A DNA stretch of 64,000 bases from Flavobacteriales bacterium (GTDB taxonomy: Bacteria > Bacteroidota > Bacteroidia > Flavobacteriales_F > PHOS-HE28): positions 1,554,824 to 1,618,823 of the forward strand of contig JADJAA010000001.1 of the NCBI GenBank assembly GCA_016704485.1, read 5' to 3'. This document shows positions 1,820 through 43,362 of this stretch, in pieces. The position numbers were made by a program, and so were the translations under genes. Numbering within the stretch: position 1 is the first letter of the stretch; every line of letters begins with the position of its first letter. The notes under the pieces were generated by a model. The model was not told the origin of the DNA, did no database searches, and was given only the letters and a program-made list of their open reading frames with translations.

Positions 1820-3292
1820 TTAAAGCACTACTTGCTGAAGAACCCCTAACACCTCCACCATCGCAAGCGTATCCATCTTGCAATAGGCCAACAGGTCGGT
1901 CCGCAGTTGGGGTACGTTGCCGGTGTAGGTGCCGCTGGCGAGTTGCGTGAAGCGCAGACTGGCGGTGCCGCCTTCCTGCACGTTGAGGGTCTTGTAACTG
2001 AGTGTTGGCACTAAGGCAGGGAGTACCGTCTTGATGCCGTACTTGCCGTTCATTTGCGGGGCGTAGTACCAACCGTGTCTGAAGGCATCCATCAGGTCCT
2101 TGATGCGCGGTAGTAGTTGCTGGATGGCTGGTGCATGGTGTGGAAGGTCGCGCGCTAGATCGCGCAGCACCATGCGTTCGAAGGTTGCGTTGTACGCGAG
2201 GATGTCGCCCGTTGGACCAATGTCCTTGAGCAATTGCTGCACGAGTGCTTCGCGTGGATCGCTGGTGCCATCCGCTAGGAACTCATGGTGCGTTGCCGGT
2301 GCACTTGGTGCGGACTGCACATGCAAGCTGTATTGGAAGGGCATCTGCTGGAACGGACGTGTGCCGTCATAGAGCGGTATGCTCGGCATCATTGTCTCGA
2401 AATCGAAATGATGCACCGGGTATTCCAGCGCCGCCAACCACTGGTGTAGCGGTTCGTGCTGGATGTGTCCTTCGCCACTTTTCCATGCATTCACTTGCCG
2501 ACGTTGTGCAGCGCTGAGCTTTTCATTTTCCGGAATGTCCACCAGCTTCAGGATGCCCCGTTGGTACAACGACCATTTCTGTTCAGTAGCACCTGTTAGC
2601 TCGAATACCGACCGCTCCGGAATGTGCAACCAACAGTGTGGTTTGAAGTCGCACGGGTAGGGTGCATCGCATTGCGGACCAATGTCGACAACGGGTGCTT
2701 GCTCTTGTTGCACCACCTGTTTCAGCGCTTCGATGCGCGCGGGTATCGCCGCTTGCTCACGCAGTACCTCCGCAAGTACGGAGGTGCGGTTGAAGAGCTG
2801 CTGCACATCCACCGCGCCCTGTTTCACATAGCTGTTGTTCAAGTACACAATGCTGACATCCGCCAACGCGATGCTGCCCGAGATGACATAGTACTGCAAC
2901 GCAGCATCCTGCACATACACATCCTTCACGCCTGTGCTGCCTTTCACTTCAAATGCTTTCCATCCCTCGGCCGTATGCACCAGCAGGTCCAACGCGGCCA
3001 ACACACCGTCGCGCATGAACGCCGCTTCGTAGATCACCCGCTCACCGCGCGCAATGGCCGCTGCGGTATCCACCACGCTCTGCGCGAACTCGAACGGCGA
3101 AGGCGGCGCACAGTCCACTCCTCCTGGAAAAAGCTGCTGCGCCATCAACCCTACCGACGTGCCCGAATCAAAGATGGCCTGCTGCTGCGCACCGATGGGT
3201 GGCAACAGATCGCGCCGGTGCTTGTACAACCACAACGCCTTGGGACATTGCTTGCCCCGCATGTACGTGCTTTTGGAGAGTAGGTGGGACAT
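1820..3292 (-). CDS. DUF2779-like protein: PD-(D/E)XK / Cas4-like nuclease with a Cys cluster plus a C-terminal RNaseH-like exonuclease fold
   Basis: 490-aa ORF. Its N-terminus MSHLLSKSTYMRGKQCPKALWLYKHR is characteristic of DUF2779 proteins. It has the Cys cluster CDAPYPCDFKPHC and a C-terminal DEDD-like region. Confidence 0.6.
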   Translation of the reverse strand: MSHLLSKSTYMRGKQCPKALWLYKHRRDLLPPIGAQQQAIFDSGTSVGLMAQQLFPGGVDCAPPSPFEFAQSVVDTAAAIARGERVIYEAAFMRDGVLAALDLLVHTAEGWKAFEVKGSTGVKDVYVQDAALQYYVISGSIALADVSIVYLNNSYVKQGAVDVQQLFNRTSVLAEVLREQAAIPARIEALKQVVQQEQAPVVDIGPQCDAPYPCDFKPHCWLHIPERSVFELTGATEQKWSLYQRGILKLVDIPENEKLSAAQRRQVNAWKSGEGHIQHEPLHQWLAALEYPVHHFDFETMMPSIPLYDGTRPFQQMPFQYSLHVQSAPSAPATHHEFLADGTSDPREALVQQLLKDIGPTGDILAYNATFERMVLRDLARDLPHHAPAIQQLLPRIKDLMDAFRHGWYYAPQMNGKYGIKTVLPALVPTLSYKTLNVQEGGTASLRFTQLASGTYTGNVPQLRTDLLAYCKMDTLAMVEVLGVLQQVVL

Positions 3293-3469
3293 GGGGGAGA
3301 ACTGATAGCACGCTCTCCGGGTCGGGGCCCGGAGTGACAGAGTTTAAAGGTGGGATAAACGCAGATAGAAATAGTGAAGGAGAGACCGCGTTCGCTGTCT
3401 TTTGCGAGGCAAGGAGGCTAGGCTCGAAAGCACGTTGTGAATGGTGAACGCACTTGTAGTCCCTCTGCG

Positions 3470-3814
3470 CTACTCGGTATCGATCTTCTTTGGTTCCTTC
3501 ACCGGTTCAGCGGTGCCGGTACCGGTCTCCTTATGCTCGAAGATGAAGTTCAACGGACTCAGTTGCTCTGCTGCAACTGCCACTTCCTTTTGTTGCACCA
3601 CAGCTTTTTCGCCGGTGCCATAGGTTACGTGTACCATGTGATCGCCAACGGGTGCATTGTGCATGAAGGGCGTGCCGGCCACTACTTCACCAACGGCGGT
3701 GCTGTCCACCATCACCTGGGCGTTCACGTTGGACATGACCAGGATCTTGCCGGTGGTCTGCGCTTGGATGAGCGAAGAAAGGAAAACGGTAATGATGATA
3801 ATGGAAGTGCGCAT
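3470..3814 (-). CDS. Small secreted hypothetical protein
   Basis: ORF 3470..3859(-). An internal Met at 3814 starts a signal peptide MRTSIIIITVFLSSLIQAQ. The overlapping + strand ORF lacks such features. Confidence 0.4.
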   Translation of the reverse strand: MRTSIIIITVFLSSLIQAQTTGKILVMSNVNAQVMVDSTAVGEVVAGTPFMHNAPVGDHMVHVTYGTGEKAVVQQKEVAVAAEQLSPLNFIFEHKETGTGTAEPVKEPKKIDTE

Positions 3815-3928
3815 CGGTTGAAATTTTGCGTGGTTTGGTTCCGGTATTTCGGTTGGCATGTCCGAACTTATCGGAATGCGGAGGTGAAGGTATAGTGTAT
3901 GATCACCATCTGCGGTTGGGAGATCGTG

Positions 3929-5674
3929 TTACTGCACCACCACGCTCAAGGTCCGCACGCGTTCACCTGCACGCACCACCACTAGGTAGCGACCTGCTGC
4001 GGCATCGGGCAACTGGATGGCTTGGCTCGGCGTGTTGCGCTGCTGTCCGCTCCAACACACCTTGCCACTTGCATCGAATACGTTGATGCTCGCTTGGTGC
4101 ATGTCCGATGGAAGCACCAAGTTGAAGCGCCCGGTGTTCGGATTCGGAAAGGCGATGATCATCTCCGCATCGACTTCCTCGTTGAGTGCAGTGATGACCA
4201 ACATGTAATCAGTAGTGAGCGTGCAGCCCGTTGCGGTGGTGACGGTAACACTGTATTGCCCACCTGTTGCAGCCACCACGAAAGGGGCGTCCGAGCCGGG
4301 CAAGGGTACGCCGTTCAGGCTCCACGCGTAGCTCTCGAAATCGCCTTGAACCAACAGCACTTGTCCGCTTGCTTCAATGGTGACCGATGGACACACCACG
4401 ATGGTATCGCTGTTAGCAGTACAGCCGAATGCATTCGTTGCAACACCCCACCACAAGCCGGTGCTATCCGTGGGAACGCAAGGGCCGTTCACGTTGGGCA
4501 CCGTGTCGCCGTTGTTGTACCAGACGTAGGTCAACGGAATGGTATCCGTGGCGCAGAGCAATGCTGCGGCGGTGTCATAGCTCGTGGAAAGTTGGGGTAC
4601 AGGGAACACACGGACCGTATCCGTATCGGTGAAGACCAATTGCGGTACCACGGAAATGGTGAGGCTGCCGAAGGTGCCGTTGCCCAACGCGAAAGGTACT
4701 ACGCCATTGCTGCCGGTCGGGATGTTGAACGTGCCGAGGTCATCGTCCTGGCTCACGGGATCTTCATCGAAGAAGGCGATCGAATACGGTGGGTTCGCTA
4801 AGAGGTGGCCCACATCGTTCCAGGTCATGCTCGTGCTGTTGTCTCCAGTGCCACTCGTGGTGCTGTTGCCGTTGCCATCGGTGAGCACGTAGTACAGATC
4901 CGGATCGCCCGTGCACGCACCGAAGAGCGATGGTTCCTCTACATCGCCGCACCAATTGTCGCTCACGCCGCCCAGCACTACATCGTTAAGTACGAAGCCG
5001 CCGATCGTTGTGGTGAGCGCTACCACATGATCGCCCGGCGTATCAAAACTTGCGCTCGGCGTGGCACTGTTGCTCGTGTTCCCGTTGCCAAGGTCCCACG
5101 CATAACTTGTGGGTGCCGGAGCGCCATCGAGCAACGCGGTGAACTGCACATCGGCACTTCCGCATCCGCTGCTGGGTGTGAATGTGAAACTTGCATTTCC
5201 ACCACTGCCCGCTTGCACTACCAACGTGACACCAAACGTCTGCGACACGTTCAACGTGAAACCGCTCGCTTCCACCTGTGCAATGATGTTGATCGCGATG
5301 GTGTACGTGCCACTTCCAATGGGTGTGCCGCACAGCCGCGCGCAACCATACTGGTTCACCTGCGGATAGTAGATGCCCAACGGTTCGTTCGACGTAAGCT
5401 CCATGCCGAAGGGCACCCCCGTGACACTGGTGATCGTCATCTGCAAAAAGTTGACGTTCATTCCCGTTCCCGGATCGGTGAAGTTGGCCGGTAACCAAAA
5501 GGTGATGTCGCTTGCATACGCTTCACCTGCCGTAGCATCGGGTGGTTGCAACGGACACAGGGTAGGGTAGGCCGGCGTGGCAAAACAAGTGGCATCGATC
5601 GCGCAGCTGATGCATTGCGCGTGTACGCTGCCCAACGCGAGCAGCGCAATAGTGAGGAGGAGTGTTCGGATCAT
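3929..5674 (-). CDS. T9SS C-terminal sorting domain-containing secreted protein (PKD/Ig-like repeats)
   Basis: ORF 3929..5743(-). The likely start at 5674 gives signal peptide MIRTLLLTIALLALGSVHAQ. The C-terminus ...AAAGRYLVVVRAGERVRTLSVVVQ is a typical Por/T9SS CTD. The protein is Thr/Gly/Asn-rich with beta-repeat composition. Confidence 0.75.
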   Translation of the reverse strand: MIRTLLLTIALLALGSVHAQCISCAIDATCFATPAYPTLCPLQPPDATAGEAYASDITFWLPANFTDPGTGMNVNFLQMTITSVTGVPFGMELTSNEPLGIYYPQVNQYGCARLCGTPIGSGTYTIAINIIAQVEASGFTLNVSQTFGVTLVVQAGSGGNASFTFTPSSGCGSADVQFTALLDGAPAPTSYAWDLGNGNTSNSATPSASFDTPGDHVVALTTTIGGFVLNDVVLGGVSDNWCGDVEEPSLFGACTGDPDLYYVLTDGNGNSTTSGTGDNSTSMTWNDVGHLLANPPYSIAFFDEDPVSQDDDLGTFNIPTGSNGVVPFALGNGTFGSLTISVVPQLVFTDTDTVRVFPVPQLSTSYDTAAALLCATDTIPLTYVWYNNGDTVPNVNGPCVPTDSTGLWWGVATNAFGCTANSDTIVVCPSVTIEASGQVLLVQGDFESYAWSLNGVPLPGSDAPFVVAATGGQYSVTVTTATGCTLTTDYMLVITALNEEVDAEMIIAFPNPNTGRFNLVLPSDMHQASINVFDASGKVCWSGQQRNTPSQAIQLPDAAAGRYLVVVRAGERVRTLSVVVQ

Positions 5675-5739
5675 GGTGCAATGGCCTGCCCGAAGATCGG
5701 GTTCGGCGGGGGAAGATACTAGGATACAGCGCCCTTCGT

Positions 5740-6642
5740 TCATCGTGTTCTCCGGAGCCGAGAAGGCTCTTCAGACGTTGGCTCTTCGCCCCCGCGCAGA
5801 CCGTGCGCATCGCGCTCATCCAGAGTCCATTTGGGTTTGGCGGTCTTCAATCGCTTTTCCACTTTCTTAATGTGTTCGGCAGGTGGAATGTTCTCCGGTA
5901 GTGTGCCACCAATACGACGGATGGCATCACGCACCTCCTTGCCTACTGACTCGTGTGTGCGTATTGCCTGCTGATCCCCATGCACACCTTCCCGGGCCAA
6001 TTTGTCACGGGTCTGCGTCATGCGGAATTGGTTCGCAGCGAGTTCGGTTGCGTTCATGCGGTCCAGCAATTGCTCTTTGCCAGGGATGCCCTTGCGCTGT
6101 TTGATCTGTGCGTTACCAATACCTCCGTAGAGCCCTTTGTAACCAGCATCGTGGAATACACCGAACATGCGCCCGTTCACCCCAGCCTGTTGTGCAGCAC
6201 CGCTCAATGCTTTGAATTCTTCGGCTGTTTGCTTGCGAATTTGCAGCCGTTCTTTGTCTGCGGCCAATTGGTCATTCACTTCTTGGCGTCTCGCTTGCAC
6301 AACAAAATACTGCTGCGCTAAGGCGATCTCCGGCTTGCGAGGGTCGCCGTTGATGGCGATTAGATAGCAGGCGAATCGGGAGAGGTGGAAATCGGCCAAC
6401 TGGCGCTCACTGCCCGATCCAAGAGGGACCATTTTGCCGGCGCCGGCAAAATGGTCGGTCGGCTCATTCCCTGACTCTCTACACGCATCTTGTGCCCGTT
6501 TGATGGCCTGTTCAAATCGCCGCCATTGGTCATAACCTAACAACGGTTGCAGCGCTCTGGCACTCCAGAACTCGGCACCATGTGAATTGACCTGCTTCAG
6601 TTCTTCGAAGCTGGGCGGGGTAGGGTTCGGTAACTCACTCAT
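5740..6642 (-). CDS. dinD: DNA damage-inducible protein D homolog
   Basis: 300 aa. It is collinear with E. coli DinD: FWSARALQPLLGYDQWRRFEQAIKRAQDACRESG..., LSRFACYLIAINGDPRKPEIALAQQYF, GLYGGIGNAQIKQRKG, ELAANQFRMTQT. Confidence 0.75.
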   Translation of the reverse strand: MSELPNPTPPSFEELKQVNSHGAEFWSARALQPLLGYDQWRRFEQAIKRAQDACRESGNEPTDHFAGAGKMVPLGSGSERQLADFHLSRFACYLIAINGDPRKPEIALAQQYFVVQARRQEVNDQLAADKERLQIRKQTAEEFKALSGAAQQAGVNGRMFGVFHDAGYKGLYGGIGNAQIKQRKGIPGKEQLLDRMNATELAANQFRMTQTRDKLAREGVHGDQQAIRTHESVGKEVRDAIRRIGGTLPENIPPAEHIKKVEKRLKTAKPKWTLDERDAHGLRGGEEPTSEEPSRLRRTR

Positions 6643-6849
6643 TCTGCTGACCGCTTTCTCGTCAACGCGGTTTGCACAATATACAGGCTTTGGACCAACA
6701 AATGAAGCTAACTACAATCCTCTAAAACCTTAATTCAGGAGCCGACCGCTTCGGCGTCTCCACAATCACAATGATCTCACAAATTGCCTACCTTTCATAG
6801 CGGTGTATTTGTAGATGAGGGTGGCATGGTGCAACCAAGATGAGGGAAC

Positions 6850-30909: not shown

Positions 30910-30971
30910 GCAACGGGGGTCAAAGTAAGCGGTGGAGGGTTATGGTGTAGATGTGTTTGCAGGTTATGATC

Positions 30972-34202: not shown

Positions 34203-34287
34203 TGCTTTGCACCGTGCGCCTCGTGGTGCACACTTGTGGTTCAGAACTGCTTCATGTAGGCCTGGTGCAAGAGGCTGTATTTGTTCC

Positions 34288-34758: not shown

Positions 34759-35042
34759 GATACTTCAAGTTACAGTACACTTACTTGATACAGAGGTGCT
34801 TATGCCATTGCGTGGGGTATGCCTGCTTGTAACACGGGGACTGATAACCCACTCAGCGTCAGGCGTAAAGAGTGATCCGAACGTTGCCCGTGCTGCATAA
34901 CCCATCCTCGAGCGGCCGCGTGCGGGCTACAGTAAATGAAAAGAACCCCGGCCAGTTGTGCTAGGATTCTTCCGTTCGGGGATGGTGTATGAGTGGCAGG
35001 GTCGTCTGCTATGCGGCAGACTGACCCTGAGCGGGTTTAAAA

Positions 35043-35327: not shown

Positions 35328-35348
35328 GTGTGCCCCTCATTTGAATGG

Positions 35349-35389
35349 AACGACCCCGCTGTTTTTGCTGGGTCGTTTTTTTTGCTGGG
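35349..35389 (+). terminator. Rho-independent terminator (stem ACGACCC/GGGTCGT, 13-nt loop, T8 tail)
   Basis: The sequence reads aACGACCCcgctgtttttgctGGGTCGTtttttttg. Confidence 0.6.
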
Positions 35390-35457
35390 GGGCGCGAGAG
35401 ACGAGCTTCCATTCTTGCAGACCATGGATCAATGGGCATTGGATGGAATGTAAATTG

Positions 35458-36426: not shown

Positions 36427-36434
36427 TGAAGAGC

Positions 36435-38822
36435 TCAGTTGTTCAGGCGCCAGGAAGCATCCGTTAAAGCCTCTATTATCTTCTTAGTGGGTTTGGGAAA
36501 TCGTACGTTGGTCGGTGACTTCATCAAGTGCTCATCGATCAGCCTCAACAAGTACATATCACGCCGACTACTACCGAGAATGCTCTTTCTGTTGAGTCGT
36601 TCATGTAGATCCTTCAGTTGTGCCTTACCCGAATCATCTAACGCCGATGCCTTCGCTATGAGGTTGTAATAGCGGTCAAAGAATTCAGCTGTGCGCGGGT
36701 CCAGGGTTGTACTTAATCCGAATAATTCTGAGGTAAGGAGCTGGTCGGAACGTAAGCCAGCCGGCGAATCCATGTCGTCGTGTACTGTAGCCATGGAAGG
36801 GTCGTCCACATTTCTCTTGACCAATGCTACTTCACCAGCACCCAGCCCATGCAGGCATAGTGGCTCATGGGTGCTCGCGATGAATTGGATAAGCGGAAAT
36901 GTCTGTTCCAATCTTCTTAAGATGCTCATGCGCCAACTCGGGTGCAGATGTGCACCGATCTCATCAATTAGTACCACGCCTCTAATTTGATGCGTATCCG
37001 TTGGATTGCCTGCCATTATATCACAGGCTAGACCAACCATGGTCTTGTAACCCGCACTAAAATGCTTTAAGCGGGTGAATGACCCGTTCACGAAAAGCCC
37101 GAATTGTGTTGGCTTGTTGTTTTCAAATTGAAAGTCGAGACGTGTAGAATTATCTGTAAGATCCAGCAGGTCCTTCAAGGCCACACAAACATCGAAGAAC
37201 TGCTGTTGATTCTTTACCACTATGGTACGTAACCACTCTTCGGCATCTACCATGGGATAGAACGGGTCAAAGAGGTTCTGGATGTTCTTATTCACTCCCC
37301 TTTTCTCTAACAGATCAGAACTCTTGCCTTTTTGCGGCAGCAATCGAACAGGCCCGTATGCACGAAGAAATATATTCGGGACCTCACCTTGCTCCCATTT
37401 TAATCCGCTATTCGTGATGTTCACTACGATAGGATCTGTTCGCTGATGAAAGTAGACTTCAATTCTACCTGACGTAGCTCCACGCCTCAAGCTAGTGCTG
37501 AAATGCTCCTTCATCTTACTCAAGGCTTTCTTGCCGCTGAGTATCAATGCAAGTGCTTCGAGCAGCGAACTTTTTCCTGACCCGTTCTCACCCAGCAGCA
37601 TTTTCCAACCGCTGTGTCGAAAGGTTTCCTGTTGTGGAGATTCGGAGCCGTTTTCGTCGATCGTCTTCCGGCGTTCCTCTTGATTGCCTCCCGCTGTTTC
37701 CGTGTTCAAGTCTAAGTTCAGTTCACGTTCTGTGTCTACTAGGTCTTTCGGGCGTTCTTGGGGGATCAAGAATACAGCCTTCTCGAAGATCCTGTAATTC
37801 TCAACTATTAATTTGCTAATGGTCAGCGCTTGATGCGCGACTTTCTCCTTGGACGGCGCATTCTCTGTGGCGGTTTTCGGAGGAGTTCTTTGCGCCTCGG
37901 AACTCGTCTTCTTTGGAGACTCCTTATTAGCGCGTGTTGATCCCGGTTTCGTACGCGCTCCGGTCTCAGCTTCTAATAAGGACCCAGGCTTATTGAGCCC
38001 TTTGCTTATTGTTTCGACGTGCAGGCCGTCGCCTTGAATGAGGATTTTTAGTCCGAAGTCCTCCTTAAGAACATGGTTACTCAGATTCCGCATTGGACTT
38101 TGCGGGTCTATCAGTCCTTTCAAGAAGTGATCTTCTTCTACGGTTCGAGGTAGTTTCTCACCCTTTTTTTTAAGAACCAGAGACTTTGTCAAGTCGCGAA
38201 CTCGGTGAACCATATCACTCCTTCTATTGATGGCGGATTTCCGGTTCAGGTCCAGAGTTTCAATGGTCACCTCGGCTCGTCGCTTCTGCATGTGCCCTAA
38301 AGTGGAACGAGGCTTTATCATTCCATTAGATGAATAGTCGAAGTACTCCTCCGGATCGTCTTCATAAGGATTCAGCAAATACGGTTCTTCTTTCTCGAGC
38401 GCACTCCCCCGAGGCTGGTCATCAGCATGCTTGATAGGAACACGTTTTCCGGCGATGGGAAACTGTGCTCCCTTTGCAAAACTGCACTCATTGCATATGG
38501 GTAGCATGTTCTGCCAATCAAACAATAGCCACCAATAGTGGTCGCCAACCTGCTCATTTGGTTCCACTTTTACCGGTCGGTACAGGTCGATGTGTACCGT
38601 CTTTTCATTCAAGGGTGCTTCGCAATACGCACATGCATTATTGGAGGTTTCCAGAAGATCTCGGTTTACATCACGAGAATACTGTGGAGCCTTGTGTCTT
38701 ATCTGGCTTCGCTTCTCTAAAGGTTGCGCATAAAACTTCCGAAGTTCATTGAACGTCTTCTCTCCTTCCGTACTGTACTGTAGGTCTGGTGGAGATACTT
38801 TACTTCGGTTCAGTTTTCTCAT
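36435..38822 (-). CDS. Fusion of an N-terminal HNH (PtuB-like) domain with an AAA15/ABC-type ATPase (PtuA-like)
   Basis: 795 aa. The N-terminus has NACAYCEAPL...HIDLYRPV...NMLPICNECS (HNH). The ATPase has Walker A LLGENGSGKSSLLEALALIL, Walker B VVLIDEIGAHLHPS, and ASTHEP (a D-loop/H-motif region). Its stop (36435) is 9 nt from the downstream HNH gene start. Confidence 0.7.
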   Translation of the reverse strand: MRKLNRSKVSPPDLQYSTEGEKTFNELRKFYAQPLEKRSQIRHKAPQYSRDVNRDLLETSNNACAYCEAPLNEKTVHIDLYRPVKVEPNEQVGDHYWWLLFDWQNMLPICNECSFAKGAQFPIAGKRVPIKHADDQPRGSALEKEEPYLLNPYEDDPEEYFDYSSNGMIKPRSTLGHMQKRRAEVTIETLDLNRKSAINRRSDMVHRVRDLTKSLVLKKKGEKLPRTVEEDHFLKGLIDPQSPMRNLSNHVLKEDFGLKILIQGDGLHVETISKGLNKPGSLLEAETGARTKPGSTRANKESPKKTSSEAQRTPPKTATENAPSKEKVAHQALTISKLIVENYRIFEKAVFLIPQERPKDLVDTERELNLDLNTETAGGNQEERRKTIDENGSESPQQETFRHSGWKMLLGENGSGKSSLLEALALILSGKKALSKMKEHFSTSLRRGATSGRIEVYFHQRTDPIVVNITNSGLKWEQGEVPNIFLRAYGPVRLLPQKGKSSDLLEKRGVNKNIQNLFDPFYPMVDAEEWLRTIVVKNQQQFFDVCVALKDLLDLTDNSTRLDFQFENNKPTQFGLFVNGSFTRLKHFSAGYKTMVGLACDIMAGNPTDTHQIRGVVLIDEIGAHLHPSWRMSILRRLEQTFPLIQFIASTHEPLCLHGLGAGEVALVKRNVDDPSMATVHDDMDSPAGLRSDQLLTSELFGLSTTLDPRTAEFFDRYYNLIAKASALDDSGKAQLKDLHERLNRKSILGSSRRDMYLLRLIDEHLMKSPTNVRFPKPTKKIIEALTDASWRLNN

Positions 38823-38823
38823 C

Positions 38824-40638
38824 TTAACTATGTGCTATTCTGTGGAACGTGTTCGCCAAATAGTGCTTCGGGTTAGTCCTGGCGATCAGGTCGAATTGTG
38901 CTTCGCTCAGGCCGGCCAGCATATTGGCATAGAGCTCCTTTTCTGATAGGTGGTTCCTCACGACAAAAAAGTCTGTACCGAACAGGACCCGTTCACCGAG
39001 TTTCTTCACTGAATGGTCGATCGTCTTTTTCAGTAACGGTTGTATCCACGGATCGTGCAATATGTAACTGATATCTGCATAAACGTTCTCATAGCGCAAC
39101 ATCATACTGCAAATGATCGTGTACCAGTCAGCTTCCATCCAGTGAGCGTAGACACGTGTCCATTGGATGCGCTTGTGTTCGTTGTCATAATACGATCGAT
39201 GAAATAATCCGCTTTCAGCATGCAGGTTCAGATCTTGGTTGTACTGGTCATTATCGGCTTCTAAATGTCGTTTCCATTCATCAACACCACCAAAATGTGC
39301 CAAGCAGATCTTCAATTGAGAAAGTGATCGGAATTTTTCATCGGGACCTTTTTCGAACAACGTTTGAATTCGGGGTTGGCAGCTCACGAGGTGCTCCCTC
39401 AAGAGGTCATCATCCAGCAGGCAGAGGTAGTTCAATGGATGTGTGTAGTTCTTTTGAAAGTCGATTCCGCGAAGTTCCAACAGGTCAATGGGTGCGATCA
39501 CCGTATCGTCATGTGCGTCCTCTATTCCGGTTGAACGCTTGAAGACAGGATGCTTTGCCATTTCATCAGTGATCTTGTCTCGGGAATATATTGTGCCATG
39601 CACGCAATGGGTCATGATCGGTAAACCTTCCTGAGCTGCATACGCCCACACGGGCAATAGGTCTTCATCGAAAGGATAATAACCTAAAGCCGGGTAGATC
39701 TTGAATCCGCAGCAACCATTGCTTAGATACTTCTGGACTTTACATTCAAGCAAGACTACTTTACCGTATTCTACTTTCCACTTGAAGAAGTCATCCTCTT
39801 CACGAATTCGGCGTGGATCAATGAAGATGAAAGGCAGTATTTGATGTCCATGATCTTCACCTTTGGTAAGTTTTACAAGCCCTTCCATTTGTTTGTGGAA
39901 ATCACCTAATCGGTGGACCTTCCCCGCACCCATGTATTTCATATCCATTGGTAGAACAATGAATTTGGTTTCGGCTGGGTACTGGGCCCGGAGTTTTTGA
40001 AAGAGTAGACTTAGTCGCCTTTGGTCATCACCGGTTTTCGCACTTTTCGTCTCGTAACCATAAGAGCTGAAGCGTGCGATAAGTACGTATCGCTCCAAAA
40101 GGTCCATGTACTCCGTAGCAGGAAAGCTCTTGATCATTGGAACAAACTTTTGTAGAAGGAACCAGATCTGTCTTCGAACGGCTGGGATGAATGCAATAAT
40201 TGCTGCTACGAATATGGTCTTGATCGCCCAGTGTAATTCATGAAAGTATAATTTATACTTTACAAGTAACGCCAAGAACGCCGCGATATATTTCGACCCG
40301 CCATAGAAGGTGCTTTCAACCAAAACTTCATAAAGGAATAATAACACATAGATCGTAACGATCAAATTAAACGCACCTCGTACAAACTTCAAGAAGCTGT
40401 TTCGTTGGATCCTGTTCTGCGCCTTTACCTTGTTTATGCGTATGGTTTCTTGTGCCGGTTCATACCGCTCGGCATACTTCCGTCGGTTGCACTTCACGTA
40501 AAGTTTCATGAAGTAATCCATTCGCGCCCACTTGTACAACGGCCACGGAAGAATACCCTTTGCATGCTCTGGAGGCACGTGATAGTTGTTGAACAAGTGC
40601 ACGTGGCAGTTCACTATGGGGTCCTTCACTTTACTCAT
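38824..40638 (-). CDS. Membrane-anchored amidohydrolase-superfamily (metal-dependent TIM-barrel hydrolase, Amidohydro_2-like) protein
   Basis: 604 aa. The N-terminal metal-binding motif is VNCHVHLF. A ~80-aa insertion carries 2-3 TM helices (LIVTIYVLLFLY, IFVAAIIAFIPAV). Then come IMTHCVHG, CLAHFGG and VLFGTDFF. It ends 2 nt before the start of the HNH-ATPase gene. Confidence 0.6.
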   Translation of the reverse strand: MSKVKDPIVNCHVHLFNNYHVPPEHAKGILPWPLYKWARMDYFMKLYVKCNRRKYAERYEPAQETIRINKVKAQNRIQRNSFLKFVRGAFNLIVTIYVLLFLYEVLVESTFYGGSKYIAAFLALLVKYKLYFHELHWAIKTIFVAAIIAFIPAVRRQIWFLLQKFVPMIKSFPATEYMDLLERYVLIARFSSYGYETKSAKTGDDQRRLSLLFQKLRAQYPAETKFIVLPMDMKYMGAGKVHRLGDFHKQMEGLVKLTKGEDHGHQILPFIFIDPRRIREEDDFFKWKVEYGKVVLLECKVQKYLSNGCCGFKIYPALGYYPFDEDLLPVWAYAAQEGLPIMTHCVHGTIYSRDKITDEMAKHPVFKRSTGIEDAHDDTVIAPIDLLELRGIDFQKNYTHPLNYLCLLDDDLLREHLVSCQPRIQTLFEKGPDEKFRSLSQLKICLAHFGGVDEWKRHLEADNDQYNQDLNLHAESGLFHRSYYDNEHKRIQWTRVYAHWMEADWYTIICSMMLRYENVYADISYILHDPWIQPLLKKTIDHSVKKLGERVLFGTDFFVVRNHLSEKELYANMLAGLSEAQFDLIARTNPKHYLANTFHRIAHS

Positions 40639-40766
40639 TTTTGATCCAGTGCGTACTGATCACTTATAGAGATCTTATGATGCCAGTACTATCGGTCAGA
40701 AATGCATTGACTTGCCACCACATTATTGTGATGGCTCATGGTCGAATGGAACGTAAATCTGTGGAG

Positions 40767-41864
40767 TTAAGAATTAGGTACTATCTGCACACCAAACCGG
40801 AACTGGAAATTCTTCTTCACGAAATCATCTCCGGAATACCAATTAGCCACTATTCGAACGACGCTATTCAATGCTAAACCTGCGCTGAATTGCCAAAGAT
40901 CGATACCTCCCTCTGACGTACGATCAAGATTATGCCAAAAAACAGCATTTCCACTTATGTGAGAATAGCGCACTTGACCAAAAAGAGCCATGCGATCCTT
41001 AATCCCAGTAAGTGAAAATACCATTTCTGCACCATTATCAAAGTTTTGGCCAACGACATTTGTGTCTACCCCGATCTTAGGAAGATCGAAGGATAATCGA
41101 GGTGCATAATGCAAGCGAATGGACAATCGACGGTTCAGTGAGGTAAATCCGACAATTGGCACACCGAAATTCAAAACCCCGTTTCCGCCACCGCCAAGAA
41201 TACGTTGCACCTGATCTTGGAAAGTGGCGCTGGAGTCTGAAACTGGCACTGTATCTGGCTCACTCGTCTTGTTGCTGATCAGCGCACCAAAACCCATTCG
41301 CACTGGTCCGAAATAATCATAAACAACCTCCGAGTATAGAGATGCTTTCTGTGCTTGCCCACTATACGTGAGGAGATTATTCTTTAGGAGTTTTCCCCGT
41401 TCCTCTTCAGAACTGAAACCATCGTAGAAATATTCCGTCGCAATTCGCCGGACCGCCAAGCCATAAAGCCCTTCTGTTACATCCGGATCGAACCGGATGC
41501 GCAACAATTCTTCTCTGTACGACTGGAAATCCTGCCTTCGCTGTCGATATGCGGCTTTCAGTGAATCGATCAGTTCTTTTGAATCGGCGGAGCGGTCATT
41601 ATCCAGTGCTTGGAACGAAGCTCTTCGGAATGCTTGTTTGTGTTTCTTGTTTTCGGCTCGATCGTCTTTCAAAAATGCATATACACTCTTTACTTGTATT
41701 GACGAATCAGACGGTTCAAGGAATTTATTCAGTTCAACTTTTGTTAAGTCTATGTTGCTTTTCCGAGACTCACTGTTTGGAAAAACAAATGGCCCCGTTT
41801 GTGCGAACATTGTGCATGAGGTTGAAAGCAGGAATATCGCAATTGTTGTTCGTCTCATTGTCAT
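40767..41864 (-). CDS. Secreted hypothetical protein (signal peptide; possible outer-membrane beta-rich protein)
   Basis: 365 aa. The N-terminus MTMRRTTIAIFLLSTSCTMFAQ. No family recognised. Confidence 0.5.
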   Translation of the reverse strand: MTMRRTTIAIFLLSTSCTMFAQTGPFVFPNSESRKSNIDLTKVELNKFLEPSDSSIQVKSVYAFLKDDRAENKKHKQAFRRASFQALDNDRSADSKELIDSLKAAYRQRRQDFQSYREELLRIRFDPDVTEGLYGLAVRRIATEYFYDGFSSEEERGKLLKNNLLTYSGQAQKASLYSEVVYDYFGPVRMGFGALISNKTSEPDTVPVSDSSATFQDQVQRILGGGGNGVLNFGVPIVGFTSLNRRLSIRLHYAPRLSFDLPKIGVDTNVVGQNFDNGAEMVFSLTGIKDRMALFGQVRYSHISGNAVFWHNLDRTSEGGIDLWQFSAGLALNSVVRIVANWYSGDDFVKKNFQFRFGVQIVPNS

Positions 41865-41884
41865 ATACTTTTCAGTTCAATTAT

Positions 41885-42676
41885 TTAGACTTCTACACCA
41901 TAAGATTCCGTGAACGCCGCTTCAGCGTATGATTTGCTGGCGTAAGCAAACCCTTTGTCTCCCCACAGAGTGGTTCCCCAACTGTTTCGCACGATGAAAT
42001 GATCAGGCGTGTATCCGACAATAGAGACAGCGTGGCCACCTAGGTTGTCGCTGGCACGGTAGCGCGCTAGTTTGCCCCGTGTCTCTTTCGCATCCATAAA
42101 GGCGTTGTCACAGTTCAGCCGGGTGAGAATGGGGCCTTTGTTGGCGATCCAGCGCCGCCATTCATTCAGGTCTTGGCCTAATGAGAAGTAGCGCATCACC
42201 TTCAACTGCGCAGCAATCGCGTAGAACACATCGGTCTCATCCGGATAGAGTATTCCGCGACCGAAAGGCAACACGCTATCCAGCACTGCGCCGTATTTGC
42301 GCGATACATCGAGTGCTGCTTTCAGACTGGTTCCATCGCTTTCAATGAATGAGGTTGGTTTGTCGGTGAATTCATCGATCTCCTTTGCGGCCATCCATGT
42401 AAAGCGCGTGCTAAGCCTACGGTTGGTGGCGATCCTTCCGGCTTTTGCGAAATGCCAACGCAGCACACCTTCGGCGCAAGCCCAGCCAACGCACGAGCCG
42501 GTACTTCCTTGGTCGCCAATGGTCCACCAATCTTCTCGCAAGTCTTTTTTAGGCGGAGGTGGTGCTGGTGCGCGTAGTGCGCCAGCGGCACGTGCTGTGT
42601 GCAAGTTCCAATCGTTTGCGGTGTTCAATGAAGGAAGGCAATTGAGGACGCGGGGAGGTGATTTCTTTGTTGCCAT
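41885..42676 (-). CDS. Papain-like cysteine peptidase (C1 family)
   Basis: Catalytic Cys context QGSTGSCVGWA. His context GGHAVSIVGY. Asn/Trp NSWGTTLWGDKGFAYASKSY. Confidence 0.7.
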   Translation of the reverse strand: MATKKSPPRVLNCLPSLNTANDWNLHTARAAGALRAPAPPPPKKDLREDWWTIGDQGSTGSCVGWACAEGVLRWHFAKAGRIATNRRLSTRFTWMAAKEIDEFTDKPTSFIESDGTSLKAALDVSRKYGAVLDSVLPFGRGILYPDETDVFYAIAAQLKVMRYFSLGQDLNEWRRWIANKGPILTRLNCDNAFMDAKETRGKLARYRASDNLGGHAVSIVGYTPDHFIVRNSWGTTLWGDKGFAYASKSYAEAAFTESYGVEV

Positions 42677-42708
42677 TTTTTTGAGGAATTTGTTGACTTA
42701 AGCTTCGT

Positions 42709-43362
42709 TCATGCGCTCCACCGCCACCCCAACACATCACTCGCCGGGTAACTACTTACACAAACACTATTACTCTGATTACCGCCTAACACCATGATGC
42801 CGGTACCGCGCGTTTCGAGGTAGAAGGCCACATGGCCACTGGTGGTGCTGTTGCCGCGTTTGAAGACTGCGATGCATCCGGGAACGGGCTCGTTAATTTT
42901 TTTGCCCCATTGCAACCAGCTGCGAGCGGCGGCGGAGTTGGTGCCGCGCAAGTTTGCTTTGGTGATGCACCAGTTAACGAATGACGAGCACCATGCCACC
43001 TCATCGGTGGTTGCTTTGAGACCTGTAGTACTGTGGTATTCAATTATGCGCTGGTTATGCTCAGGACCTGGATATTCCTTAACACCGATCTCTGCACGGG
43101 CGATCTTCAACCAAGCAGGCTCATCTATCGGTGGAGCGGTGGCAACCGGTTCGATGTAGGTGGTGCTTACCCAACCGGTAAGTGTGCCATCGCGCAATTT
43201 TGCGCTCACTTGCGCCCAACCATTCCGCGGTCCTTGCAAGAGGTCCAATGCGGTATGCTGCGGTAGGCGACCGATGATGGATCGATTGGTACTTGGGCCT
43301 TCGCGAAGGCGAAGTACAGAGGCGGTGGTGCGGTGAGTTGGCATGGTGTTTCGTTCGAACAA
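42709..43362 (-). CDS. SH3b domain + TIGR02594/CHAP-like amidase (putative peptidoglycan hydrolase)
   Basis: The N-terminal SH3b region is ASVLRLREGPSTNRSIIGRLPQHTALDLL...GWV. The C-terminal region has EVAWCSSFVNWC...GHVAFY (Cys/His of the CHAP/NlpC-P60 fold). Confidence 0.6.
   Translation of the reverse strand: MFERNTMPTHRTTASVLRLREGPSTNRSIIGRLPQHTALDLLQGPRNGWAQVSAKLRDGTLTGWVSTTYIEPVATAPPIDEPAWLKIARAEIGVKEYPGPEHNQRIIEYHSTTGLKATTDEVAWCSSFVNWCITKANLRGTNSAAARSWLQWGKKINEPVPGCIAVFKRGNSTTSGHVAFYLETRGTGIMVLGGNQSNSVCVSSYPASDVLGWRWSA

What the first reader, a model, noticed from the sequence alone, without database searches (positions are those of the whole stretch)
1820..43362. ~41-kb defense and DNA-processing island delimited by T9SS/secreted-protein genes and housekeeping loci
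Between a delta-60 repeat gene and the NarL-type two-component system, almost every gene is a nuclease, helicase, methyltransferase, restriction enzyme or a regulator of these. They include DUF2779, DinD, RecQ-PRT/DprA, Exo-RecQ-UvrD, GmrSD, Type I RM, MTase-HK/REC, rSAM, WYL and the Septu-like genes. A gene remnant (1396..1695) and an IS nearby (50.6 kb) are interspersed. Such clustering is the hallmark of defense islands, and it raises the prior that the uncharacterised members are also immunity-related. Those members are the REC-effector C-terminal domain, the cassette protein at 23477..24274, the amidohydrolase and the 47-aa peptide.
Basis: inference. Interest (0 to 1): 0.6.

Follow-up and report, generated by a model that had tools for sequence, protein, structure and literature searches.

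The report
Strain-variable anti-phage defence island
This stretch is a real, strain-variable cluster of mostly known anti-virus (phage defence) genes in an uncultured sludge bacterium. That is an ordinary kind of feature, but it holds one rare, conserved gene cassette next to a restriction system that deserves a closer look.

Summary
The island is real, but its edges are wrong. A conspecific genome (GCA_963852075.1; flanks 99.4-99.9% identical) carries about 39 kb of different DNA between window ~5,752 and ~43,492. So the variable cargo is about 37.7 kb. DUF2779, the cyclase remnant and the PKD/T9SS gene are conserved flank, not island.

In the cargo, 14 of 23 proteins hit PADLOC models, against 0 of 12 right-flank proteins (Fisher p = 6e-4). 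Recognised systems are PsyrTA, a DinD/PDC-S13 homologue, a GmrSD-like type IV enzyme, a complete type I RM and Septu (PtuAB).

Not every gene is defence. The cargo also holds an adenylate cyclase, an outer-membrane-like protein, a C1 peptidase and an SH3-CHAP hydrolase. The 1610-aa RecQ-UvrD helicase has relatives that sit alone beside plasmid maintenance genes. The amidohydrolase is not a Septu partner in any of three homologues sampled.

I found no integrase, tRNA gene or junction repeats, so this fits a chromosomal defence hotspot between core genes.

The most interesting part is a cassette conserved in four contexts: WYL regulator, B12-type radical SAM enzyme, apparently dead methyltransferase fused to a histidine kinase, then a receiver protein with HEPN-like and OB domains, always followed by hsdM-hsdS.

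Verdict: a new member of a known kind, of moderate interest.

The parts
1..1270 (-). Left flank: 5' part of a delta-60/DUF5122 T9SS protein gene. It runs off the window.
   Evidence: Translation. A 524-aa product with DUF5122 + Por_Secre_tail is called in public contigs. Present in both island alleles.
1396..1779 (-). Left flank: 3' remnant of an adenylate/guanylate cyclase gene (127 aa).
   Evidence: Guanylate_cyc hit on the called product. The identical protein is indexed in 59 blocks of the collection, including the alternative-allele genome. About 80% aa identical, by eye, to the C-terminus of the cyclase at 21999-23375.
1820..3292 (-). Left flank: DUF2779 protein with a Cas4-like N-terminus. 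Conserved, not island cargo.
   Evidence: PF11074 5.2e-42. Weak Cas4 hit 5.4e-4. Present at 99.35% nt identity in GCA_963852075.1.
3929..5743 (-). Left flank: PKD/T9SS secreted protein. This is the junction gene and is more diverged than the rest of the flank.
   Evidence: PKD + Por_Secre_tail. 92.5% nt identity to the alternative-allele genome, against 99.4% further out. Homology ends 8-10 nt upstream of its ATG.
5752..43492 (.). Strain-variable segment (island cargo), about 37.7 kb.
   Evidence: No homology to GCA_963852075.1 between these points except about 350 bp at 78.7% identity. That genome has about 39 kb of other DNA here.
5740..6642 (-). DinD (DNA-damage-inducible protein D, Bro-N domain). 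This is the PADLOC single-gene candidate PDC-S13.
   Evidence: NCBIfam PRK11525 equivalog, 364.5 bits against a cutoff of 242. PDC-S13 3.8e-110.
6919..10223 (+). PsyrTA (RqlH/RqlI-type) toxin-antitoxin defence pair: PsyrT (RecQ helicase + PRT) and PsyrA (DprA/SLOG).
   Evidence: PsyrT 4.9e-287 over 3-686 of 689 profile positions. PsyrA 1e-124 over 1-387 of 398. Pfam domains. Called as 694 aa and 406 aa in public contigs.
10664..15496 (-). 1610-aa fusion: DEDD-exonuclease-like N-terminus, RecQ core, linker, UvrD core and an unassigned C-terminus. Role uncertain.
   Evidence: Pfam DEAD/Helicase_C and UvrD domains. Only domain-level PADLOC hits: DpdF-like and GajB-like. Exonuclease hit is weak, E = 1.6. 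Full-length relatives stand alone on plasmids beside ParA/ParB/Rep.
15720..17534 (-). GmrSD-like type IV (modification-dependent) restriction enzyme candidate.
   Evidence: GmrSD_N 2.6e-31. HEC-05 1.7e-30. GmrSD_C only E = 0.0076.
17621..21079 (-). Type I restriction subunit HsdR, with an N-terminal DUF4145 domain and a C-terminal EcoEI_R_C domain.
   Evidence: REase_I 2.7e-160, full length. Pfam domains.
21302..23375 (+). 7TM membrane adenylate/guanylate cyclase. It is split into two ORFs in the window (21302-22063 and 21999-23375). Non-defence cargo lying between hsdR and hsdS.
   Evidence: Guanylate_cyc 7e-56. Only a domain-level PycC hit, 1.2e-15. Called as one 700-711-aa gene in other assemblies.
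23477..24274 (-). 265-aa protein of unknown function, downstream of hsdS.
   Evidence: No PADLOC or NCBIfam hit. Faint UDG-superfamily hint, E = 0.098. A 59%-identical homologue sits in the same position in L025. The gene is flanked by a 68-nt repeat of the hsdS 3' end.
24303..27004 (-). Type I RM specificity (HsdS, 24303-25448) and methyltransferase (HsdM, 25445-27004) subunits.
   Evidence: Methylase_S 2.7e-31 and N6_Mtase 1.6e-57. PADLOC Specificity_I 1.9e-66 and MTase_I 1.7e-168. HsdM has an intact NPPF motif.
27018..28226 (-). REC-X: a response regulator made of a receiver domain, a HEPN-like helical domain and an S1/CSD-like OB fold.
28213..30909 (-). Sensor kinase: an N6-MTase-like domain with degenerate motifs I and IV, one TRD, an H-box and HATPase_c.
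   Evidence: N6_Mtase 5.7e-15 and HATPase_c 1.7e-8. Specificity_I hits at residues 472-640. Motif IV reads APPF/KPPF/APPF in three orthologues, against NPPF in HsdM. The H-box EHSF/LRP is conserved.
30972..32234 (-). B12-binding-type radical SAM enzyme (PADLOC candidate PDC-M51A).
   Evidence: PDC-M51A 6.6e-117 over 6-413 of 420 profile positions. Radical_SAM and a weak B12-binding hit. KedN5-family C-methyltransferase-like, 1.2e-32, below the cutoff.
32344..33354 (-). WYL-WCX transcription regulator, first gene of the cassette.
   Evidence: WYL 3.3e-10 and WCX 1.7e-11. 64-68% identical homologue at the head of the cassette in L025, L026 and L036.
33501..34746 (.). Two tandem-repeat arrays (22 nt x ~18 and 21 nt x ~22) in the 2.1-kb gap between the cassette and Septu.
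   Evidence: Copy number differs among conspecific assemblies, and several contigs break here.
35458..38822 (-). Septu: PtuB (HNH nuclease, 35458-36426) and PtuA (HNH-like N-terminus + ABC/SMC-type ATPase, 36435-38822).
   Evidence: PtuB 1.2e-68, full length. PtuA 1.6e-157. AAA_21 and SMC_N. Low GC, 0.43-0.48.
38824..40638 (-). Membrane-associated Amidohydro_2 protein, 1 nt upstream of ptuA. Not a conserved Septu partner.
   Evidence: PF04909 3.8e-11. No PADLOC hit. 838 relatives in Bacteroidota. None of three sampled relatives is next to PtuAB.
40767..43362 (-). Non-defence cargo: an OMP-like 365-aa protein, a papain-family C1 peptidase and an SH3-CHAP peptidoglycan hydrolase.
   Evidence: Pfam. 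No PADLOC hits. Absent from the alternative allele.
43493..46961 (+). Right flank: two lineage-specific genes (257 and 214 aa) and a NarL-type two-component system.
   Evidence: 99.87% nt identity to GCA_963852075.1 from 43493 onward. HisKA_3/HATPase_c and Response_reg/GerE. No PADLOC hits.

Best explanation
Window ~5,752-43,492 is the cargo of a chromosomal defence hotspot in an uncultured Flavobacteriales bacterium from activated sludge. Two conserved flanks hold alternative gene sets of about 38-39 kb in different strains of one species. The left flank is delta-60, cyclase remnant, DUF2779 and the PKD/T9SS gene. The right flank is two small genes plus a NarL-type two-component system.

The allele in the window is a mosaic of independently acquired modules:
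- DinD/PDC-S13.
- PsyrTA.
- A giant RecQ-UvrD helicase.
- A GmrSD-like type IV enzyme.
- A type I RM system whose hsdR is separated from hsdMS by an inserted cyclase gene.
- Septu (PtuAB).
- An amidohydrolase.
- A small cell-envelope/peptidase block.

Each recognised system presumably works as its family does; this is inferred from family membership. Type I RM and GmrSD cut unmodified or modified foreign DNA. PsyrTA and Septu act as ATPase, nuclease or toxin modules triggered by infection.

Because I found no integrase, tRNA gene or junction repeat, the cargo is most likely exchanged by homologous recombination in the conserved flanks (inferred).

The type I M/S genes are the tail of a conserved cassette: WYL regulator, B12-type radical SAM enzyme, pseudo-methyltransferase+TRD fused to a histidine kinase, and a response regulator with HEPN-like and OB-fold domains. 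I infer the following chain. The dead MTase/TRD module reads DNA. It activates the kinase. The kinase phosphorylates Asp57 of the regulator. The regulator's HEPN-like/OB output then acts on RNA, causing growth arrest or regulation alongside restriction. The anatomy and the synteny are shown. The signalling chain and the RNA target are inferred.
For: Variability:
- A conspecific genome shares 99.35% identity (window 1-3714) and 99.87% identity (43493-56960) but has unrelated DNA in between. Record coordinates place its two junctions about 39 kb apart.
- The edges of that alternative cargo carry defence-like genes: PLD nuclease, Ser/Thr kinase-AAA, HSP70 and SNF2 helicase.

Defence content:
- Full-length PADLOC, NCBIfam and Pfam matches support PsyrT/PsyrA, DinD/PDC-S13, HsdR/M/S, PtuA/PtuB, GmrSD_N, PDC-M51A and WYL.
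- 14 of 23 cargo proteins hit PADLOC, against 0 of 12 flank proteins, p = 6e-4.

No mobility hallmarks:
- 0 tRNA genes.
- No recombinase domain among the cargo proteins.
- No repeats at the junctions.
- The junction gene is more diverged (92.5%), as expected at a recombination edge.

Mosaic origin:
- The Septu/amidohydrolase/OMP block has GC 0.43-0.48, against 0.50-0.58 elsewhere.

Cassette:
- The same gene order occurs in L025, L026/L027, L033 and L036.
- In L026/L027 it is followed by an unrelated hsdM-hsdS family.
- Motif IV of the MTase is degenerate in all three orthologues aligned, and the H-box is conserved.
- D57, K115, R185, E189 and H263 are conserved across 148 distant relatives.
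- The kinase and regulator diverge together and much faster than their neighbours. In L033 they are each 62% identical, while the rSAM is 94% and HsdM 100%.
Against: - Only one alternative allele was seen, in 1 of about 23 contigs read, and only about 13 kb of its roughly 39 kb could be read. Its defence content is therefore judged from the edges.
- No sister species could be compared. The species is absent from the GTDB-representative scan.
- Most of the island is compositionally like the core.
- Several cargo genes have no defence link: the cyclase, the OMP-like protein, the C1 peptidase and the CHAP hydrolase.
- Relatives of the 1610-aa helicase sit in plasmid-maintenance contexts.
- DinD is also an SOS protein.
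- The contiguous Rx4-6H motif typical of HEPN RNases is not conserved. H190 varies.
- hhalign found no link to the DUF4145 domain of the neighbouring HsdR.
- Nothing here tests phosphotransfer, DNA sensing or phage protection.
- The role of the radical SAM enzyme is unexplained.
Confidence: 0.85

Rival explanations
1. The segment is, or was, an integrative mobile element (ICE, prophage remnant or transposon-borne island) that inserted site-specifically. It is not a recombination-exchanged chromosomal hotspot.
For: - It has a discrete size of about 38 kb, with an alternative of similar size (~39 kb) at the same site.
- The Bro-N domain in DinD and the SH3-CHAP and C1 peptidase genes could be phage-derived.
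- An IS lies 7 kb to the right.
- Part of the cargo has lower GC.
Against: - No integrase, recombinase, relaxase or phage structural domain among the cargo proteins scanned.
- No tRNA gene in 64 kb.
- No direct or inverted repeats at the junctions.
- The cargo is a patchwork of different compositions, not one unit.
Confidence: 0.08
2. The clustering is largely a DNA repair, replication and housekeeping neighbourhood that only looks like defence, because helicases, nucleases and methyltransferases hit defence models at the domain level.
For: - DinD is an SOS protein in E. coli (NCBIfam equivalog).
- The 1610-aa helicase matches defence models only by domain, and its relatives lie beside plasmid partition and replication genes.
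- DUF2779 is conserved flank.
- The cyclase hit to PycC is at domain level only.
Against: - Full-length, very strong matches to bona fide systems: PsyrT 4.9e-287, PsyrA 1e-124, HsdR 2.7e-160, HsdM 1.7e-168, PtuA 1.6e-157, PtuB 1.2e-68.
- The whole segment is dispensable and replaced in a conspecific strain.
Confidence: 0.05
3. For the cassette only: the kinase/REC-X pair is not an immune effector. It is a regulatory two-component system that tunes expression or activity of the adjoining type I RM, for example after a change of specificity or DNA damage. REC-X would act as an RNA- or ssDNA-binding regulator through its OB fold.
For: - The cassette is always adjacent to hsdM-hsdS, including two unrelated hsdM families.
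- It is headed by a WYL regulator, a class known to control defence operons (BrxR is cited in PMC12839542).
- The OB domain resembles the Rho and cold-shock RNA-binding domains.
- The contiguous HEPN Rx4-6H motif is not conserved.
Against: - The helical domain has three near-invariant polar residues (R185, E189, H263) across 148 distant relatives, which suggests catalysis rather than binding alone.
- The kinase and regulator diverge far faster than their neighbours, a pattern more typical of arms-race sensor/effector pairs than of housekeeping regulators.
Confidence: 0.3

Closest known systems
Core defence hotspots / defence islands between conserved core genes (e.g. P. aeruginosa cDHS, PMC10250203; E. 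coli hotspots, PMC10121019)
   Same: - A fixed chromosomal site bounded by conserved genes.
- Alternative cargos in conspecific strains.
- Several unrelated defence systems side by side.
- No integrase needed.
   Different: - The host is an uncultured Flavobacteriales lineage.
- Only two alleles have been seen so far.
- The cargo also carries non-defence genes (cyclase, OMP-like protein, peptidases).
PsyrTA / RqlHI (Millman et al. 2022, bioRxiv 10.1101/2022.05.11.491447; RqlH/RqlI, PMC4670107)
   Same: RecQ-like helicase with a C-terminal PRT domain, followed by a DprA-like partner. Both match the PADLOC models over their full length.
   Different: No difference detected at the sequence level. 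The function in this host is untested.
Septu (PtuA ATPase + PtuB HNH nuclease; e.g. PMC12819146, PMC12640716)
   Same: Adjacent, co-oriented ptuA and ptuB with full-length model matches. PtuA belongs to the subfamily that carries an extra HNH-like N-terminus.
   Different: - An amidohydrolase gene sits 1 nt upstream. It is not found beside PtuAB in its sampled relatives.
- No retron RT or ncRNA nearby. Rfam gave 0 matches.
Type I restriction-modification (HsdR/HsdM/HsdS)
   Same: All three subunits are present and intact. HsdM has an NPPF motif and HsdS has two TRDs.
   Different: - hsdR is separated from hsdMS by 3.2 kb that carries an oppositely oriented cyclase gene and a 265-aa gene.
- hsdMS is co-oriented with, and immediately follows, a four-gene cassette that is conserved elsewhere.
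Detocs (defensive two-component system; bioRxiv 10.1101/2023.01.24.525353)
   Same: A histidine kinase and a receiver-domain effector encoded in a defence context. The proposed logic is the same: sensing, then phosphotransfer, then effector activation.
   Different: - No Hpt/buffer protein was identified.
- The kinase here is fused to a degenerate N6-MTase+TRD instead of Detocs' sensor.
- The effector is HEPN-like/OB, not a nucleosidase.
- There is no PADLOC hit to any Detocs model.
- This is a resemblance in logic, not in membership.
PADLOC candidate system PDC-M51
   Same: The radical SAM protein matches PDC-M51A over its full length (6.6e-117).
   Different: - No neighbouring protein here matched another PDC-M51 model.
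- No paper describing PDC-M51 was found.
- More distant rSAM relatives stand alone beside other RM or BREX-like genes.

Membership tests
Defence island / chromosomal defence hotspot | Several distinct defence systems clustered more densely than in the surrounding genome. | tested here: met
   At least five recognised systems or candidates lie in 37.7 kb. PADLOC hits 14 of 23 cargo proteins against 0 of 12 flank proteins, p = 6e-4.
Defence island / chromosomal defence hotspot | Variable content between conserved flanks in closely related genomes. | tested here: met
   GCA_963852075.1 has flanks 99.4-99.9% identical and about 39 kb of different DNA between them. Only one alternative allele was seen.
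Defence island / chromosomal defence hotspot | Anti-phage function of the cargo. | not testable with these tools
   This needs phage challenge of strains or heterologous expression.
Integrative mobile element (ICE / prophage / genomic island with integrase) | Integrase or recombinase, att repeats, often a tRNA target. | tested here: not met
   0 tRNA genes. No recombinase domain in the cargo. No junction repeats.
PsyrTA | PsyrT (RecQ helicase + PRT) adjacent to PsyrA (DprA-like), both matching the family models over their full length. | tested here: met
   PsyrT 4.9e-287 (3-686 of 689). PsyrA 1e-124 (1-387 of 398). The genes are adjacent and co-oriented.
Septu | PtuA ATPase adjacent to PtuB HNH nuclease. 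| tested here: met
   PtuA 1.6e-157 and PtuB 1.2e-68, with an 8-nt gap and the same strand.
Type I RM | HsdR, HsdM and HsdS all present. | tested here: met
   REase_I 2.7e-160, MTase_I 1.7e-168, Specificity_I 1.9e-66. hsdR is not contiguous with hsdMS.
GmrSD type IV restriction enzyme | N-terminal DUF262 (GmrSD_N) NTPase domain plus C-terminal DUF1524 (GmrSD_C) His-Me nuclease domain. | tested here: inconclusive
   GmrSD_N 2.6e-31 passes the cutoff. GmrSD_C scores only E = 0.0076, 16.6 bits against a cutoff of 23. An HH...N motif is visible in the sequence.
PDC-M51 (PADLOC multi-gene candidate) | PDC-M51A together with its partner gene or genes. | tested here: inconclusive
   The A component is met (6.6e-117). 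No partner model hit was found among the neighbours. The composition of the system could not be looked up.
Detocs | DtcA kinase, DtcB Hpt buffer and DtcC receiver-effector matching the family models. | tested here: not met
   No Detocs model was among the PADLOC hits of the kinase fusion, which were all MTase or specificity models. REC-X had no PADLOC hit even at E <= 1.
HEPN RNase superfamily (for the REC-X output domain) | Four-helix HEPN fold with a conserved Rx4-6H catalytic motif. | tested here: inconclusive
Active N6-adenine DNA methyltransferase (for the kinase fusion) | Motif I (FxGxG-like SAM loop) and motif IV (D/N/S)PP(Y/F/W). | tested here: not met
   Motif IV is APPF, KPPF and APPF in three orthologues, and motif I is degenerate (DPAADAS). 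The adjacent HsdM has NPPF and DPSAGTCGF. Loss of activity is inferred from the motifs, not measured.

The most novel reading that the evidence does not exclude
The conserved cassette is a previously undescribed restriction-coupled immune module. Its parts are a WYL regulator, a B12-type radical SAM enzyme, a pseudo-methyltransferase/TRD-histidine kinase and a REC-HEPN-like-OB response regulator, always placed just upstream of type I hsdM-hsdS. In this reading, a catalytically dead DNA methyltransferase has been repurposed as a sequence- or methylation-reading sensor. It signals by phosphorelay to an RNA-targeting effector, giving an abortive-infection or backup layer to type I restriction. 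The fast co-divergence of kinase and regulator would reflect an arms race with phage.
Probability: 0.3. Interest if true: 0.7.

Novelty: new member of a known kind. Interest (0 to 1): 0.4.

Why it matters
Defence islands and core-flanked hotspots are well known, so the island itself mainly adds a documented hotspot in a poorly studied, uncultured Flavobacteriales lineage from wastewater.

Its practical value is as a pointer to untested genes:
- A cassette that joins a dead methyltransferase to a histidine kinase and a HEPN-like response regulator beside type I RM genes. If functional, it would show two-component signalling wired to DNA-modification sensing in immunity.
- A radical SAM family (PDC-M51A) that recurs next to RM or BREX-like loci, with no known role.

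The work also gives negative results that stop over-annotation. The amidohydrolase is not a Septu component. The giant RecQ-UvrD helicase is not established as defence.

Tried and rejected
- Sister-species synteny. A scan of GTDB species representatives with the 257-aa right-flank protein found nothing. A second scan with the REC-X alignment found only one genome. So only conspecific comparisons were possible.
- Cyclase remnant as a footprint of inversion or insertion. The remnant (1396-1779) is only a paralogue of the full cyclase, with no DNA repeat found. It is present in both alleles. Rejected.
- Retron or ncRNA beside Septu, or in the 2.1-kb gap. Rfam gave 0 matches over the window and there is no RT gene. 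Rejected.
- Amidohydrolase as a Septu accessory. None of three homologues has PtuAB neighbours. Rejected.
- REC-X helical domain related to the DUF4145 domain of the adjacent HsdR. hhalign probability 0.1%. Only 1 of 19 relatives had a weak Pfam hit. Rejected.
- REC-X, rSAM and the helicase on plasmids. REC-X gave none. The rSAM gave only a distant Streptomyces KedN5 enzyme. The helicase did give full-length hits, but in plasmid-maintenance contexts.
- The 1610-aa protein as Gabija GajB or Dpd DpdF. Matches are partial and domain-level only, and no partner genes are present. Rejected as membership.
- Literature on PDC-M51, or on a WYL + rSAM + kinase + type I cassette. No description was found.
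- The 265-aa protein. There was no PDB relative and only a faint UDG hint.
- Whole-island compositional signal (GC, GC3, codon distance). Only the 35.4-41.9 kb block stands out.

Full report
**What is in the window.**

The 64-kb window comes from an uncultured Flavobacteriales bacterium known from activated-sludge metagenomes. It is 99.7-99.8% identical to GCA_016708985.1 contig JADJER010000001.1 and up to 99.98% identical to several metagenome contigs. A source names one of its proteins 'MAG ... [Flavobacteriales bacterium]'.

ORF listing and Pfam, PADLOC and NCBIfam scans give the map below, from left to right.

| Coordinates (strand) | Gene |
|---|---|
| <1-~1270 (-) | delta-60/T9SS gene |
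| 1396-1779 (-) | 3' remnant of a cyclase gene |
| 1820-3292 (-) | DUF2779 |
| 3470-3859 (-) | 129-aa secreted protein |
| 3929-5743 (-) | PKD/T9SS protein |
| 5740-6642 (-) | DinD |
| 6919-10223 (+) | PsyrT and PsyrA |
| 10664-15496 (-) | 1610-aa RecQ+UvrD fusion |
| 15720-17534 (-) | GmrSD-like protein |
| 17621-21079 (-) | HsdR |
| 21302-23375 (+) | membrane adenylate cyclase |
| 23477-24274 (-) | 265-aa unknown |
| 24303-27004 (-) | HsdS and HsdM |
| 27018-28226 (-) | receiver-domain protein (REC-X) |
| 28213-30909 (-) | N6-MTase/HATPase fusion |
| 30972-32234 (-) | radical SAM enzyme |
| 32344-33354 (-) | WYL regulator |
| 33501-34746 | two tandem-repeat arrays |
| 35458-38822 (-) | PtuB and PtuA |
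| 38824-40638 (-) | amidohydrolase |
| 40767-43362 (-) | OMP-like protein, C1 peptidase, SH3-CHAP hydrolase |
| 44.1-47 kb (+) | two small genes and a NarL-type two-component system |
| 50712-52367 | IS |
| 55.9-61.2 kb | core genes murI, ompH x2, bamA, uppS |

**Checking the observation.**

- Full-length matches support PsyrT (4.9e-287), PsyrA (1e-124), DinD/PDC-S13 (3.8e-110; NCBIfam DinD equivalog above cutoff) and HsdR (2.7e-160).
- They also support HsdM (1.7e-168), HsdS (1.9e-66), the radical SAM enzyme as PDC-M51A (6.6e-117), PtuA (1.6e-157) and PtuB (1.2e-68).
- As a control, none of 12 right-flank proteins hit any PADLOC model at E <= 1e-3, against 14 of 23 proteins in the variable segment. 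Fisher's exact p = 6e-4.

Weaker points:
- The 'Exo' label for the N-terminus of the 1610-aa protein rests on DEDD-like motifs and one PDB hit at E = 1.6.
- The nuclease half of the GmrSD-like protein is only weakly detected.
- The cyclase, the 265-aa protein, the amidohydrolase, the OMP-like protein, the peptidase and the CHAP hydrolase have no defence-model match, or only a domain-level one.

**Is it a variable island, and where are its edges?**

Exact-protein look-ups of the right-flank response regulator and of the left-flank cyclase remnant both returned contig CAWKSF010000029.1 of GCA_963852075.1.

Alignment with that contig gives:
- 99.35% identity over window 1-3714.
- 92.5% over 3916-5750, the PKD gene.
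- No similarity from ~5,752 to ~43,492, apart from about 350 bp at 78.7%.
- 99.87% from 43,493 to 56,960.

The record coordinates place the two junctions about 39 kb apart in that genome. A different cargo of similar size therefore occupies the same site. Its readable edges encode a PLD-family nuclease, a Ser/Thr kinase-AAA protein, an HSP70, an SNF2 helicase and a second LuxR-type regulator.

That condition is not met, and the island is real.

The boundaries differ from those proposed. DUF2779, the cyclase remnant and the PKD/T9SS gene are conserved flank. The cargo runs from just upstream of the PKD start codon to about 130 nt beyond the SH3-CHAP gene.

Among roughly 23 contigs read at each flank, only this one carried the alternative allele. 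No sister species could be examined, because two scans of GTDB representatives did not find the species.

**How the island is built and moves.**
- There is no tRNA gene in the window.
- There is no integrase, recombinase, relaxase or phage structural domain among the cargo proteins.
- There is no repeat shared by the two junctions.
- The gene at the left junction is markedly more diverged than the rest of the flank. This fits allele exchange by homologous recombination through the flanks, as described for core defence hotspots in other bacteria (PMC10250203, PMC10121019).
- Composition is not uniform. The Septu/amidohydrolase/OMP block (35.4-41.9 kb) has GC 0.43-0.48. PsyrA is at 0.62. The rest is close to the core at 0.50-0.58. 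The cargo is therefore a mosaic assembled in several steps.
- Small scars support this. A 68-nt copy of the hsdS 3' end flanks the 265-aa gene. A 68-nt relic of the 129-aa gene's 5' end lies at 15635-15702.

**The uncharacterised members.**

*(a) REC-X and its neighbours.*

Close homologues of REC-X are rare. There are about 20 clusters among 5.8 billion proteins, one among 185,579 species representatives, and three JGI metagenome contigs.

Every neighbourhood that could be read shows the same order: WYL, radical SAM, MTase-kinase, REC-X, hsdM, hsdS.
- L025 (a Flavobacteriales MAG) also carries a 59%-identical homologue of the 265-aa protein.
- In L026/L027 the cassette is followed by an unrelated hsdM/hsdS family, two GmrSD-like genes and hsdR.
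- L033 shows the same order over the part that was read (rSAM to hsdM).
- L036 has an extra DUF2130 gene.

The MTase-like domain of the kinase fusion has lost the catalytic Asn/Asp of motif IV. It reads APPF, KPPF and APPF, against NPPF in the adjacent HsdM. The glycine loop of motif I is also lost. One TRD, an H-box (EHSF/LRP) and the ATPase domain are retained.

The REC-X model (pLDDT 78.5) has three parts:

An exhaustive HMMER search shows a wider superfamily of about 500 clusters at E <= 1e-10. In 148 distant members the phosphorylation residues are conserved: D13, D14, D57, T/S97 and K115. Three output-domain residues are also near-invariant: R185, E189 and H263. H190, which would complete a classical Rx4H motif, is not conserved.

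Kinase and regulator diverge together and much faster than their neighbours. In L033 each is 62% identical while the rSAM is 94% and HsdM 100%. In L036 the kinase is 24% identical and REC-X is detectable only by profile, while HsdM is 86%.

I read this as a two-component module in which a dead methyltransferase/TRD senses DNA and a phosphorylated HEPN-like/OB regulator acts on RNA. The anatomy and synteny are shown. The signalling and the target are inference.

Foldseek gave no significant hit. hhalign found no link to the DUF4145 domain of HsdR.

*(b) The radical SAM enzyme.*

It is a B12-binding-type enzyme and matches PADLOC's PDC-M51A over its full length. No neighbour here matches another PDC-M51 model, and no paper on PDC-M51 was found.

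More distant relatives (49-56% identity) stand alone, but they lie beside other defence genes:
- Type I RM and a TIR protein in Roseivirga.
- SNF2+PglZ and an MTase-helicase in a metagenome contig.

Its role is unexplained.

*(c) The amidohydrolase.*

It belongs to a large Bacteroidota family with 838 hits at about 40% identity. Three sampled relatives lack PtuAB neighbours. They follow other partners instead: a caspase-like peptidase with Y4kD_C and a lactamase-like protein; two unknown proteins; or they precede a PLD-SNF2 protein and a type IIG RM. It is therefore not a Septu accessory, though its contexts look conflict-related.

*(d) The 265-aa protein.*

It is conserved once in the cassette context and gives only a faint UDG-superfamily hint at E = 0.098.

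*(e) The 47-aa ORF.*

The 47-aa ORF at 10459-10602 overlaps a 59-65-aa ORF that public gene callers prefer. Nothing could be learned about either.

*(f) The 1610-aa helicase.*

Full-length relatives (31-38% identity, 99% coverage) occur on Bacteroides, Phocaeicola and Aliarcobacter plasmids. They are solitary genes beside ParA/ParB, replication and SSB genes, and are annotated simply as RecQ-family helicases. A defence role is not established.

**Comparison with known systems.**

The island as a whole matches the known concept of a chromosomal defence hotspot between core genes. Membership is met for:
- PsyrTA, Septu and type I RM as systems.
- DinD/PDC-S13 as a single-gene candidate.

The GmrSD assignment is incomplete, because the C-terminal domain is only weakly detected.

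The kinase/REC-X pair works like Detocs in logic (bioRxiv 10.1101/2023.01.24.525353), but it is not a member. It has no model hits, a different sensor, a different effector and no Hpt protein.

**Verdict.**

The finding is a genuine but ordinary kind of feature with corrected boundaries: a new member of a known kind.

Its added value is the conserved, rare RM-adjacent cassette and several negative results that prevent over-annotation. I rate the interest as moderate (0.4). The most novel reading still open is that the cassette is a new restriction-coupled two-component immune module. I give that about 0.3 probability.

Noticed in passing
window 33501-33894 and 34292-34746: Two long tandem arrays lie in the 2.1-kb gap between the WYL gene and ptuB. 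One is 22 nt x ~18, with a unit containing GGTACC and AAGCTT. The other is 21 nt x ~22, with a unit containing the palindrome GTACATGTAC. Copy numbers differ among conspecific assemblies (e.g. 21.7, 14.7 and 6.6+9.7 copies), and several public contigs end here. The arrays are absent upstream of WYL in L025, L026 and L036. The alternative island allele has its own 21/63-nt array (L001 2209-2616).
   Followed up: partly
window 23387-23454 and 24310-24377: A 68-nt direct repeat (82% identical) of the 3' end of hsdS brackets the 265-aa gene. This suggests the gene was inserted at, or recombined into, the end of an hsdS gene.
   Followed up: no
window 3753-3820 and 15635-15702: A 68-nt stretch that encodes the signal-peptide end of the 129-aa flank gene recurs at 72% identity in the gap between the 1610-aa helicase gene and the GmrSD gene. 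It looks like a relic of a paralogue.
   Followed up: no
window 21302-23375: The membrane cyclase is split into two overlapping ORFs in different frames (21302-22063 and 21999-23375). Other assemblies call a single 700-711-aa gene. It could be a true pseudogene or a sequencing error. No fetched locus covers the frameshift site.
   Followed up: partly
window 35043-35327 (+); L001 3832-4179: A 94-aa ORF convergent with ptuB is the only sequence shared (78.7% nt identity) between the two alternative island cargos.
   Followed up: no
window 47025-47822 and 48014-48778: Two tandem paralogous genes (about 255 aa, 76% nt identity) with no Pfam or PADLOC hit lie just right of the NarL-type two-component system.
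   Followed up: no
window 4516-4605: The window has 90 bp in the PKD/T9SS gene that JADJER010000001.1 lacks. Gene calls for this protein vary from 491 to 604 aa among assemblies, and it is fragmented in the alternative-allele genome.
   Followed up: no
window 50712-52367: The IS transposase (DDE_Tnp_1_6 + DUF772, 551 aa) is intact here but is called as two fragments (360 + 120 aa) in GCA_963852075.1. Its region has no gene calls in JADJER010000001.1.
   Followed up: no
L036 8740-9987 (GCA_016718545.1): One version of the cassette carries an extra DUF2130 gene between WYL and the radical SAM gene, and a PDDEXK/REase-ARP nuclease downstream of hsdS.
   Followed up: no
L028 (Aquimarina) 2234-7740; L029 (Kriegella) 2441-7773: Relatives of the amidohydrolase are the last gene of small operons with varying partners. 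In Aquimarina these are a caspase-like Peptidase_C14, Y4kD_C and a lactamase_B-like protein. In Kriegella they are two proteins with no Pfam hit, with a patatin gene nearby. This hints at a separate, undescribed conflict-type module.
   Followed up: partly
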